From Ophelia neglecta (Eukaryota), in contig OZ260666.1 of assembly GCA_965285935.1 (NCBI GenBank), positions 63,674,001-63,738,000 on the forward strand: a stretch of DNA of 64,000 bases, written 5' to 3'. Position numbers: made by a program. Below are positions 1 through 3,000 of the stretch, piece by piece; the stretch's first letter is position 1; each line of letters begins with the position of its first letter.

Positions 1-3000
1 AGTAGTCTTATTCATTCTACTCACTCCAATGAATGAGGCCGATTTGTGAATACCATTATTCAATTATTACCCCAGTTCAGCTGGGTATTGTGGATTTGTA
101 CGAAATGTCCTCCGTAATCAGTTGCACAAGTAATACTGACTCTTTATTCACCCGATGCTAAAGGGGAAGCGAACACTGAGACTGTCAGAATTGTTAGAGC
201 ATGTTGTGGTTACCTTTGGATGGAAATGGCCAGAGTTTTTCTGTTCACAAAAACTCATATCATTGGTATTTCCACGTTTTTCTTCCCATGACCAGTTACA
301 TCATCGTTGATGAACAAAAACAATTTTTAGCTGTTCTTGTGTAGCATTGTTTGTATTCATCAACGTTCTTTTTTTCCTTTTTAGGAGAGGACTGCTTCTA
401 TCTGGCACTGCAATGTGATCTACGCTCAATTCTTTTCATTTAAATTATTAGTTTAGTCAGAATTTATTCCAACTGTCATGGAAATGACGACAAGACACCT
501 TTACGAAATCACCAACTCGGAAGTGACGCTGTATGACGTGATAGCCGTTACGAACGTTACGTCATTTATTACCGAGCAAAATAACTCAACAAGTTTAGTC
601 CCGCCCGATAAGGACACTACTATACACTGGATCTATTTTGTCCTGGCTGGTGTAGTGATATTTGGCGGACTAATCTTTGATATGTTATCAATTGTGGTTT
701 TTGCTACCTCAAGAACATTACGCAGGACCACAACCGGACATTACTTGATAGCTCTTATGGTTGCTGACACCTGCTTTCTATTGGGGGAGTTACTAAGATG
801 GCTGACCTACTCGATCGATGGGGAGCCTGTGCTCGGTCTGACCTTTACAAGCCAGTATGACGGCGCCTGCAGAACAGCATATTTCATACGTTACAGTGCC
901 AAGCTAACGTCCGCCTGGTTAACCGTGGTAATCACACTGGAGAGATACCTAACAGTCTCCATGCCTCTAAGGGTCGGCCAGATTTCGACGACCACTAAGG
1001 CCAAGGCCTTGATTGCCGGGCTGACCGTAGCCTGTATAGTCCTTGGCGCCTTCCCTTTCTGGACGGTAGGCGTTGGAGTCTGGGACGGGGTAAACTACTG
1101 TGTTATCACGGATGAGTTACAGTACGAAAAGTGGTTAATGGCCATACTCCGTGTCGGATCCCTGTTTCTGCCCTGCGTCATTATCTTTCTCCTGACTGTT
1201 GCCATTATCGTCCACCTGTATCGCGCTGACAGAAAGCGGCAGAAAATGAGCAGCATGGAGGGGAAAAGCATCCAGAAACAGCTGACAGCTATGCTGCTGG
1301 CCGTGGCTATCTCCTTTATTGTTCTCCGGCTACCCTACACCACCTTTTGGTATCTCAACAACTACGCCAAGGACCTTCAGTTAAGTCGGGTAACTGAGGA
1401 CTGGATCTACCGAGCTCGGTATATCACTGAAGTTATCGCAATGGCCAACTACGCCTCAAACTTTTTTCTCTTTTGCGTCTGCGGCAGCGCCTTTCGAGAA
1501 CAACTGGGAAAGTTCTGTCGACGAGGAAAGAAAAATAAACAGCGCCATCTTTCGTCTAACACTTTATCTACGCGCGCTCATTCCAGCTATGCCTCGCGGG
1601 ATACACTTCGAAAGGACAACGTTTCGCATACACACACCGCCAAGACATCTTCAGGCTTCTAGAATGACCCTACAACTGGACTGAAGGTACCGGGAACGGG
1701 AGTCACGACACCACCGGCGTGTCGTGAAACCCTCGAAATGAAGATAAACAATTTAATTCCAATCCTTTGACTGAAAGAACTTTTGGCTTAAACAGATCGA
1801 ACCTTTGTTAACATTATAAAGGATTCAAGCATTTTTTTTCAAGCGTAGATTCATCGGGACTTGGGGATTCGCTAGCTCATGTTCTCATCTGGATTCCTTC
1901 TATAAATTATTTTATTGTCCTATTGGGATGGCACCGAATGCCGGAGGATACCATTGCATGGTTTGATCCTGAATATGATACCATATTATAAAGCCCCGAT
2001 GTTAATTTAAATTTGCTATCCCGTCGTCAAGACTACTCTTGATTAGAAGGAATAAACTGAAGCATTGGTGAAATAGAATCCAGGAGAAAACAACAAAAAC
2101 AATGGTTGATTAAATACATTTTTCGAATTTTGGGGAAGGCCCACGTTCTGACATACAGTATTCATTTTATAACATGATCTTAGAATATCAGACCGCTCCA
2201 TGATTTTGCAAACAAACATTTGTATCTCATTTTGTAACTTATATTGCCACCATAATATTATGTTCGAAAGAAACCAAAGACATAAGGAACACAGTTTCTT
2301 AGCCGCGTGGTTCCTGTATATATAATGGCAAAAGTTTTGCTTTCAATAAATTATGCCTATATTCGATATTCGAAGTAACGTTGGTTGAAAGGACACTGCT
2401 ATTTAAAAATATATTATCATAATGTATACATAATATGTATTCTTGTATTCAGACTGATATAAAGTACATATGTCCTTTTACTCATACAGATTTGGTTTAA
2501 GTCCTTGCAGGTTTATTACTCACATATCCGTCACTAATCCCCTAATACGTTCACCAAGCCCACTGGGAATAAGATGGCAAAGCCCTGGATTTACATCCAA
2601 ATATCCGTGGTAAGCTAACACATTTGGACCAGCACAACTTGCGGTATGTTTTCTTATAAAACTGCATGGTAATCTACTCGACACAGTTTTCTACTCGAAA
2701 ACAACATTGCTTTTGAAAGAGGGATTGCTCTTGGTTTGATGGCGATATTTAAATAGCGTAACTCAATGCCTTTTAATATCATTGTTATGACATAACCTTT
2801 ATTGTGCATTATATCCCTATTAGTGTTTTGATATACAGTGGCGCTTCTTCAATGCACATCTACTTACATAGCTAGTTGAAGCGCTATTTTGTTTCCTCTC
2901 TTTGAAAATCAATTTATGTCCGTGTAAATAATTTATGTAAACATATTAAACGAAAAGCCACACGAGGTCATACGTTCACATTATTACAAAATTGTGTTGA

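What the first reader, a model, noticed from the sequence alone, without database searches (positions are those of the whole stretch)
688..1620. Gene-conversion signature confined to the 7TM core of the GPCR paralogues
Seen: by manual count there are ~22 differences over ~930 nt between 688-1620 and 23072-24004. In 1021-1430 there are only 2, both non-synonymous (E>A in ECL2, I>V in ICL3). The N-terminal ~70 codons, UTRs and flanks are far more divergent. Purifying selection does not homogenise synonymous sites, so recent ectopic gene conversion is inferred. The result is two receptors with a shared core and different ectodomain/TM1.
Basis: partly seen in the sequence, partly recalled or inferred. 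Interest (0 to 1): 0.65.

Follow-up and report, generated by a model that had tools for sequence, protein, structure and literature searches.

The report
Gene conversion patch between duplicated receptors
Two neighbouring copies of an invertebrate cell-surface receptor gene carry a roughly 410-base internal stretch that one copy very probably copied from the other recently, a well-known process in duplicated receptor genes.

Summary
Two intronless 394-codon class-A GPCR genes (478-1662 and 22862-24046, + strand, ungapped offset 22384) differ at 22 of 933 nt in 688-1620. They differ at only 2 of 410 nt in 1021-1430 (E213A, I265V), against 33 of 210 in the N-terminal part and about 26% in the 3'UTR.

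They lie on an old direct duplication whose flanks are 68-78% identical. Synonymous divergence is 0.31 in codons 1-70, matching the 3'UTR at K2P 0.32. It is 0 (0 of 97 synonymous sites) in codons 182-318.

A change-point scan using synonymous differences alone picks exactly codons 182-318; 0 of 300 codon shuffles reach its score. Recent ectopic gene conversion is therefore well supported for 1021-1430, which runs from mid-TM4 to mid-TM7.

The wider 688-1620 is not one tract but a mosaic:
- 688-1020 is intermediate (dS 0.11).
- 1432-1500 (TM7) is at background level (pS 0.34), and only its amino acids are conserved.
- 1501-1620 is low again.

No sister-species orthologues were found and no reads were available, so tree incongruence and assembly collapse could not be tested. 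This is a new example of a known process (CCR2/CCR5, FFAR2, opsins). Interest is low to moderate.

The parts
478..1662 (+). GPCR copy A: single-exon CDS of 394 codons plus TAG stop
   Evidence: ORF and translation. Pfam 7tm_1 E=1.7e-26 and 7TM_GPCR_Srw E=7.6e-17, both above their gathering scores. Seven-helix model with helix 8, pLDDT 69, pTM 0.68. Closest solved structure by sequence is GPR139, E=1e-11.
22862..24046 (+). GPCR copy B: single-exon CDS of 394 codons plus TAG stop. It aligns to copy A without gaps at an offset of 22384.
   Evidence: tblastn gives 92% amino-acid identity to A. Pfam 7tm_1 E=3.9e-26.
1021..1430 (+). Recent conversion tract in copy A (codons 182-318, mid-TM4 to mid-TM7). 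It could extend at most from 1021 to 1433, the span between the flanking differences at 1020 and 1434.
   Evidence: 2 of 410 nt differ, both non-synonymous. 0 of 97 synonymous sites differ and 0 of 66 four-fold sites. It is the best synonymous-only change-point tract, reached by 0 of 300 permutations.
23405..23814 (+). The same tract in copy B
   Evidence: Offset of 22384.
688..1020 (+). 5' shoulder (codons 71-181, end of TM1 to mid-TM4) with intermediate divergence. It may be an older, wider conversion.
   Evidence: 11 of 333 nt differ. dS 0.114, dN 0.008. p=0.046 against the N-terminal dS and p=0.001 against the 3'UTR. Four-fold sites 5 of 58 against 6 of 24, p=0.07.
1432..1500 (+). TM7 island (codons 319-341) with background-level synonymous divergence and no amino-acid change. 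It looks unconverted and is kept alike by purifying selection on the protein.
   Evidence: 5 synonymous differences on 14.7 synonymous sites and 0 non-synonymous differences.
1501..1620 (+). Helix 8 and the proximal C-tail (codons 342-381), where divergence is low again. This is either a possible separate older tract or a constrained tail.
   Evidence: pS 2 of 28.7. Amino-acid differences are 1 of 33 in codons 349-381 against 7 of 13 in codons 382-394, p=2e-4. The tail is predicted to be disordered, pLDDT below 50.
478..687 (+). Diverged N-terminal ectodomain and TM1 (codons 1-70)
   Evidence: 33 of 210 nt differ. dS 0.307, dN 0.142. 19 amino-acid differences. This dS equals the 3'UTR K2P of 0.32.
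1621..1659 (+). Diverged distal C-tail (codons 382-394)
   Evidence: 10 of 39 nt and 7 of 13 residues differ.
277..9215 (.). Copy A side of the old direct duplication (homology detectable from about 277; the window start may cut it off)
   Evidence: Self-BLAST gives 8 collinear pieces, 68-78% identical outside the CDS.
22647..28947 (.). Copy B side of the old direct duplication

Best explanation
Two class-A (Srw/GPR139-like) GPCR genes sit 22.4 kb apart in direct orientation on an old segmental duplication, with neutral divergence of about 0.3 substitutions per site. At least one recent ectopic (non-allelic) gene conversion copied about 410-425 nt of one gene's coding exon into the other.

The inferred mechanism is the usual one. 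A break in one copy is repaired from the paralogous copy by synthesis-dependent strand annealing or by heteroduplex repair. This overwrites a short internal patch and leaves both flanks untouched. The patch covers the second half of TM4, ECL2, TM5, ICL3, TM6, ECL3 and the first half of TM7.

The intermediate synonymous divergence in 688-1020 and 1501-1620 is best read as traces of older events with different end points, that is, recurrent conversion. Codons 319-341 and the N-terminus with TM1 have escaped. Purifying selection on the helices adds a separate reduction in dN across all of 688-1500.

Shown: the duplication, the counts, the dS profile and its significance. Inferred: the repair mechanism, the number and age of events, and their direction (unknown).
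For: - Both copies are intact 394-codon ORFs and align without gaps.
- The flanks are homologous but old. The 3'UTR has K2P 0.32 (179 of 688), and more distant pieces are 68-78% identical. A neighbouring aldo/keto-reductase gene was duplicated along with the receptor and has decayed on the B side.
- dS in codons 1-70 is 0.307, matching the non-coding flank, so the coding exon itself is as old as the block.
- Codons 182-318 have 0 synonymous differences on 97 synonymous sites. Fisher p is 6e-7 against the N-terminus, 8e-4 against the 5' shoulder, 2e-4 against the 3' shoulder and 3e-12 against the 3'UTR.
- The synonymous-only change-point maximum falls at codons 182-318, and 0 of 300 shuffles reach it.
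- Four-fold sites give 0 of 66 against 6 of 24, 5 of 58 and 3 of 29.
- The patch is bounded on both sides by older homologous sequence. A single unequal crossover cannot produce that.
- GC3 peaks in the tract: 88 of 137 against 138 of 257 elsewhere in the CDS, p=0.054. This is the direction expected from GC-biased conversion.
- The upper 95% bound on pS in the tract is 0.030, which puts the last event within roughly the most recent tenth of the duplication's age.
- Rfam finds no RNA family anywhere in the window. No antisense frame of 120 codons or more overlaps the tract.
Against: - Only two sequences exist, so GENECONV-type tests and tree incongruence could not be run.
- The closest relative found is only 55% identical (P0001), so there are no orthologues.
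- No reads were available, so homogenisation by assembly or polishing is not excluded.
- Support for older events in the shoulders is weak. The 5' shoulder against the N-terminus gives p=0.046 (four-fold sites p=0.07). The 3' shoulder as a whole is not distinguishable from background (p=0.44), and its split into 319-341 and 342-381 gives p=0.08.
- The GC3 excess is borderline (p=0.054).
- Both differences inside the tract are non-synonymous. Under the omega of about 0.07 seen in the shoulders this has probability 0.034, although it is 0.58 under neutrality. This mildly odd feature is left unexplained.
Confidence: 0.8

Rival explanations
1. Assembly or polishing artefact. The two copies are really more different in 1021-1430, but reads from both copies were mixed during consensus calling or short-read polishing and homogenised the most similar stretch.
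For: No read data could be examined. The tract lies inside an already similar region (3-5% divergence in the shoulders), where mis-mapping is plausible. The longest exact matches between the copies, worked out by me from the difference positions listed, are 94, 154 and 163 nt (1021-1114, 1116-1269, 1271-1433), comparable to short-read lengths.
Against: - The window has no N and no gap over 64 kb.
- Two substitutions survive inside the tract, each flanked by at least 94 identical bases. Copy-specific variants were therefore resolved there.
- The tract edges coincide with a jump in synonymous divergence but not with any repeat or low-complexity feature. The only tandem repeat is at 32035-32149.
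- Both ORFs stay intact.
- An artefact would still need the shoulders' low divergence to be explained biologically.
Confidence: 0.1
2. No transfer took place. The central 410 nt is held identical by selection on synonymous sites (an RNA structure, an embedded non-coding element, an antisense gene or extreme codon bias) or by a local mutational cold spot.
For: GC3 is highest in the tract, 0.647 against 0.50 in the N-terminal part. This could reflect codon preference.
Against: - It would need essentially complete constraint on all 97 synonymous sites, while the adjacent codons 319-341 of the same exon show pS 0.34 and codons 71-181 show 0.11.
- Rfam finds nothing at gathering score in the whole window.
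- The only stop-to-stop frames of 120 codons or more are the two receptor genes themselves. The antisense frames over the tract are 79 codons long.
- The two differences that do exist are non-synonymous, the opposite of what an RNA-level constraint on an otherwise free protein would give.
Confidence: 0.03
3. Reciprocal exchange rather than conversion. Two unequal crossovers, or a double crossover, between the tandem copies produced the internal shared patch.
For: The copies are direct repeats 22.4 kb apart, a geometry that allows unequal crossing-over.
Against: A single unequal crossover gives one junction and changes the copy number, and cannot produce an internal patch with old sequence on both sides. 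Two independent crossovers within 410 nt are far less likely than one conversion tract of typical length (general knowledge, not tested here). The outcome cannot be told apart from conversion with two sequences.
Confidence: 0.05

Closest known systems
CCR2/CCR5 chemokine-receptor gene conversion in mammals
   Same: Neighbouring single-coding-exon class-A GPCR paralogues that exchange partial tracts. In the bat Miniopterus natalensis the tracts were reported over ICL2-TM4-half of ECL2 and over TM5-ICL3-TM6-ECL3-TM7-C-terminus, with the two genes identical inside them (PMC8877049; passages seen). Here the firm tract covers TM4 to TM7 in the same way.
   Different: For CCR2/CCR5 the events are backed by many species and by tree incongruence. 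Here there are two sequences from one genome and no orthologues. The family is different (Srw/GPR139-like and invertebrate), and the ligand and function are unknown.
Chicken FFAR2 (GPR43) paralogue cluster
   Same: Tandem GPCR paralogues homogenised over part of their length by gene conversion. A few non-synonymous sites near the ligand pocket are proposed to resist homogenisation (PMC4453067; abstract and passages seen). The two surviving non-synonymous differences here, E213A and I265V, could be read in the same way.
   Different: That work used 26 genes, GENECONV and codeml. Here there are only two copies, and the excess of non-synonymous differences rests on 2 sites (p=0.034 at best).
Opsin (primate L/M, cichlid RH2a) and vomeronasal V1R paralogues
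   Same: Class-A-type receptors in tandem arrays for which gene conversion between paralogues is discussed (PMC4260670, PMC3514295 and PMC2644715; search listing and start of abstracts only).
   Different: I did not read those papers beyond the listing. L/M and RH2a opsin genes have introns (recalled), whereas the CDS here is a single exon.

Membership tests
Interlocus (ectopic) gene conversion between paralogues | The paralogues lie on a demonstrably older duplication, with homologous but diverged flanks on both sides of the shared patch. | tested here: met
   Flanks are 68-78% identical. 3'UTR K2P is 0.32 and N-terminal dS is 0.307.
Interlocus (ectopic) gene conversion between paralogues | An internal tract whose synonymous divergence is significantly lower than in the rest of the same coding sequence. 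| tested here: met
   0 of 97 synonymous sites in codons 182-318. p ranges from 6e-7 to 8e-4 against the other segments. 0 of 300 permutations reach the observed score. Four-fold sites give 0 of 66.
Interlocus (ectopic) gene conversion between paralogues | Phylogenetic incongruence: inside the tract the paralogues group together, and outside it each groups with its own orthologue. | not testable with these tools
   The nearest relative found is 55% identical, with 9 proteins at E<=1e-10. None is an orthologue of A or B, and no eukaryotic DNA collection was open.
Interlocus (ectopic) gene conversion between paralogues | The identity is real in the genome, that is, reads span each copy. | not testable with these tools
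   No read data. The window has no N.
Interlocus (ectopic) gene conversion between paralogues | GC enrichment of the converted tract (GC-biased conversion). This is supportive rather than defining. | tested here: inconclusive
   GC3 is 88 of 137 in the tract against 138 of 257 elsewhere, p=0.054.
Class A (rhodopsin-like) GPCR | Match to Pfam 7tm_1 above the gathering score. | tested here: met
   93.7 and 92.5 bits against a cut-off of 30.5.
Class A (rhodopsin-like) GPCR | Seven transmembrane helices plus helix 8. | tested here: met
   The AlphaFold2 model has helices 47-77, 85-110, 128-161, 172-196, 213-256, 264-295, 304-335 and 337-348, with pTM 0.68.
Class A (rhodopsin-like) GPCR | An E/DRY motif at the end of TM3 and an NPxxY motif in TM7 (motif definitions recalled). 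| tested here: inconclusive
   ERY is present: E155 and R156 are invariant in the 7-sequence alignment. TM7 carries NFFLF (N328, F329, F330 and L331 invariant) in place of NPxxY.
Srw / GPR139-like peptide-type receptors | Match to Pfam 7TM_GPCR_Srw above the gathering score. GPR139 is the closest solved structure. | tested here: met
   62 and 63.2 bits against a cut-off of 22.2. GPR139 E=1e-11. Ligand and coupling were not tested.

The most novel reading that the evidence does not exclude
The pair is kept as a modular design by recurrent conversion together with selection. Conversion repeatedly homogenises the signalling core (TM4-TM7). Selection protects copy-specific residues at the ligand entrance: the N-terminus, TM1 and the ECL2/TM5 junction residue E213A, and perhaps also I265V at the G-protein side. 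On this reading the only two differences left in the tract are non-synonymous because they are selected islands that resist homogenisation. The result would be two receptors with different ligand specificity but obligatorily identical coupling.
Probability: 0.12. Interest if true: 0.4.

Novelty: new member of a known kind. Interest (0 to 1): 0.2.

Why it matters
The locus is a clean two-copy example of partial gene conversion in an invertebrate GPCR expansion. Its neutral baseline is known from three sources: the flanks, the N-terminal dS and a co-duplicated gene that has become a pseudogene.

There are practical consequences. Trees and duplication dates built from the whole CDS of this pair would be wrong. 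Whole-CDS dS is 0.11, against 0.31 for the true age of the duplication. Short-read mapping and polishing in 1021-1430 will be ambiguous.

Biologically it adds little that is new. The process is well documented for CCR2/CCR5, FFAR2, opsins and chemoreceptors.

Tried and rejected
- Sister-species orthologues for separate N-terminus and core trees. One search of the 5.8-billion-protein set returned 9 proteins at E<=1e-10. The best was 55% identical (P0001), and the only named one was Lamellibrachia satsuma at 41%. None is an orthologue, so the trees were not built. Proteins shorter than 216 aa or longer than 690 aa were not searched.
- GENECONV or RDP. These need at least 3 sequences. A synonymous-site change-point scan with permutation was used instead.
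- An embedded RNA element as the cause of synonymous identity. Rfam at gathering score over the whole window gave 0 matches.
- An overlapping antisense gene. No stop-to-stop frame of 120 codons or more exists apart from the two receptor genes.
- More copies in the window. tblastn with copy A found only A and B; the other hits had E>1.
- Treating 688-1620 as a single tract. Rejected because codons 319-341 have pS 0.34 and the shoulders differ from the core at p<=8e-4.
- Literature on gene conversion in annelid GPCRs. One search returned a single review, which mentions gene conversion only in its reference list. This is one search, not proof of absence.
No related DNA loci were sought.

Full report
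**What is there.** The window has 64,000 bases, no N and 37.2% G+C. It holds only two stop-to-stop frames of 120 codons or more. These are 478-1662 (copy A) and 22862-24046 (copy B), both on the + strand and both 394 codons plus TAG.

Both proteins match Pfam 7tm_1 (93.7 and 92.5 bits, cut-off 30.5) and 7TM_GPCR_Srw (62 and 63.2 bits, cut-off 22.2). The closest solved structure by sequence is GPR139 (E=1e-11).

An AlphaFold2 model of copy A was built from a 7-sequence alignment and has mean pLDDT 69 and pTM 0.68. Its elements are:
- TM1 47-77, TM2 85-110, TM3 128-161, TM4 172-196
- an ECL2 hairpin at 197-212
- TM5 213-256, TM6 264-295, TM7 304-335, helix 8 337-348
- low-confidence (pLDDT below 50) stretches at 1-45, 123-127, 201-207 and 353-394, of which the two ends are the N-terminal ectodomain and the C-tail

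I do not take this contig for human. The closest relative found is 55% identical (P0001, unnamed), and the only named relative is a hypothetical protein of the annelid Lamellibrachia satsuma at 41%. The organism is probably a lophotrochozoan invertebrate; this is inference.

**The duplication.** Self-BLAST gives eight collinear pieces linking 277-9215 to 22647-28947 in direct orientation. Outside the CDS they are 68-78% identical.

The block also carries an aldo/keto-reductase gene on the minus strand. On the A side, four open frames at 6074-6355, 6831-7163, 8696-8917 and 8935-9150 match Pfam Aldo_ket_red. On the B side, the homologous stretches at 27232-28883 contain in-frame stops and a frame change, so that copy is a pseudogene.

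That gene is spliced. I looked at its exons only one by one and built or searched no joined model.

The duplication is therefore old. 3'UTR K2P is 0.32 (179 mismatches in 688 aligned columns).

**Checking the observation.** The two CDSs align without gaps at an offset of 22384 and differ at 65 of 1185 nt.

| Region | Differences |
|---|---|
| 688-1620 | 22 of 933 |
| 1021-1430 | 2 of 410 (1115 E213A, 1270 I265V) |
| 478-687 | 33 of 210 |
| 1621-1662 | 10 of 42 |

The 5'UTR (384-477, 12 of 91) and the region just upstream (277-383, 16 of 107) are less diverged than the 3'UTR. Pooled, they give 28 of 198 against 179 of 688, p=4e-4.

**Synonymous sites.** Nei-Gojobori estimates are in the table.

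| Codons | dS | dN | Synonymous differences / sites |
|---|---|---|---|
| 1-70 | 0.307 | 0.142 | 12 / 47.7 |
| 71-181 | 0.114 | 0.008 | 9 / 85.0 |
| 182-318 | 0 | 0.006 | 0 / 97.2 |
| 319-381 | 0.182 | 0.014 | 7 / 43.3 |
| 382-394 | 0.167 | 0.372 | 1.5 / 10.0 |

The N-terminal dS equals the non-coding divergence, so the exon is as old as the block.

Fisher tests on synonymous sites:
- core against N-terminus, p=6e-7
- core against 5' shoulder, p=8e-4
- core against 3' shoulder, p=2e-4
- core against 3'UTR, p=3e-12

A likelihood scan over all tract positions, using synonymous differences only, peaks at codons 182-318. None of 300 codon shuffles reaches its score.

Four-fold degenerate sites give 6 of 24, 5 of 58, 0 of 66, 3 of 29 and 1 of 5 across the five segments.

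**Why conversion.** The patch has old, homologous sequence on both sides, which excludes a single unequal crossover and a recent whole-gene duplication. Complete constraint on 97 synonymous sites, right beside codons with pS of 0.11-0.34, is not credible. Rfam finds no RNA family in the window, and no long antisense frame exists.

The tract is 410-425 nt long and the copies are direct repeats 22 kb apart. Both features fit ectopic conversion as known from other systems (general knowledge). GC3 rises from 0.50 in the N-terminal part through 0.58 to 0.65 in the tract and falls back to 0.50-0.55. The contrast between the tract and the rest of the CDS is borderline (p=0.054).

The upper 95% bound on pS in the tract is 0.030, about a tenth of the background.

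688-1620 is not homogeneous.
- **5' shoulder.** It is only marginally below the N-terminal dS (p=0.046; four-fold sites p=0.07), although below the 3'UTR (p=0.001).
- **3' shoulder.** As a whole it cannot be distinguished from background (p=0.44 against the N-terminus, p=0.21 against the 3'UTR).
- **Inside the 3' shoulder.** Codons 319-341 (TM7) carry 5 synonymous differences on 14.7 sites and no amino-acid change. That is ordinary purifying selection on an unconverted stretch. Codons 342-381 carry 2 on 28.7 (p=0.08 for the contrast).
- **C-tail.** In the predicted-disordered tail, 1 of 33 residues differ in codons 349-381 against 7 of 13 in codons 382-394 (p=2e-4).

The simplest account is recurrent conversion with variable end points. 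There is one recent tract (1021-1430), probable older ones over 688-1020 and 1501-1620, and unconverted islands at codons 1-70, codons 319-341 and the last 13 codons.

The sharp steps in total divergence at 688 and 1620 owe much to dN: 0.142 in codons 1-70 and 0.372 in codons 382-394, against 0.009 in codons 71-381. The ectodomain and the tail are also the variable parts among the five more distant relatives.

**The two remaining differences.** Both are non-synonymous and both lie at helix-loop junctions. In the 7-sequence alignment both columns vary among relatives. Two of the five relatives have V at the column of I265V.

Two of two being non-synonymous has probability 0.034 under the shoulders' omega of about 0.07, and 0.58 under neutrality. 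This is a hint at most that selection preserves them against homogenisation.

**What stayed unchecked.**
- No reads were available, so assembly or polishing collapse is not excluded. I give it about 0.1. The two substitutions that survive inside the tract, each flanked by at least 94 identical bases, argue against it.
- There are no orthologues and no third sequence, so there are no trees and no GENECONV run.
- The direction of transfer is unknown.
- Whether further paralogues exist elsewhere in the genome, and could have been the donor, is unknown.
- Supplementary files of the cited papers were not seen.

**Comparison with what is known.** Partial conversion between neighbouring single-exon GPCR paralogues is well documented. 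For CCR2/CCR5, tracts over TM4-ECL2 and TM5-TM7 were reported in a bat, with the genes identical inside them (PMC8877049; passages). For chicken FFAR2 paralogues, conversion was reported together with possibly protected non-synonymous sites (PMC4453067; abstract and passages). Opsins and V1Rs appear in the search listing only.

This locus is a new member of that kind. It is clear and well controlled internally, but not surprising.

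Noticed in passing
window 6074-9150 (-) and 27232-28883 (-): An aldo/keto-reductase gene was duplicated along with the receptor. On the A side, four separate open frames match Pfam Aldo_ket_red (E from 2e-5 to 7e-11). On the B side, the homologous exons carry in-frame stops and a frame change, so that copy is a pseudogene. This gives independent evidence that the block is old and that only the receptor copy was kept.
   Followed up: partly
window 384-429 and 22770-22815: Directly after a likely splice acceptor (polypyrimidine tract plus AG at 382-383) lies a 46-nt 5'UTR block that differs at only 2 positions between the copies. 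It contains a minimal AUG-UGA upstream frame (413-418 in A, 22800-22805 in B). The acceptor and the UTR are inferred from sequence only.
   Followed up: no
window 277-477 vs 22647-22861: The 5'UTR and acceptor region is significantly less diverged (28 of 198 mismatches) than the 3'UTR (179 of 688), p=4e-4. The cause could be regulatory or splicing constraint, or an older conversion. The background-level dS of the N-terminal codons lying between this region and the core argues against one continuous tract.
   Followed up: partly
window 2345-2350 and 24775-24780: An AATAAA inside a conserved 'aaagttttgctttcaataaatta' block lies near the end of the best-conserved homology on both copies. It is the likely poly(A) signal and would give 3'UTRs of about 0.7 kb. 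This is inferred from sequence only.
   Followed up: no
window 1456-1470 (codons 327-331) and the same place in B: TM7 carries NFFLF in place of the canonical NPxxY motif (definition recalled). N328, F329, F330 and L331 are invariant in all 7 aligned family members, so this is a family trait and not a defect.
   Followed up: partly
window 29000-64000: None of the open frames of 70 codons or more in this 35-kb stretch matches Pfam at E<=0.001. Across the whole window 102 such frames were scanned, and only the 4 aldo/keto-reductase frames matched. The whole window has 0 Rfam matches and a single tandem repeat (58 bp x 2, 32035-32149).
   Followed up: no
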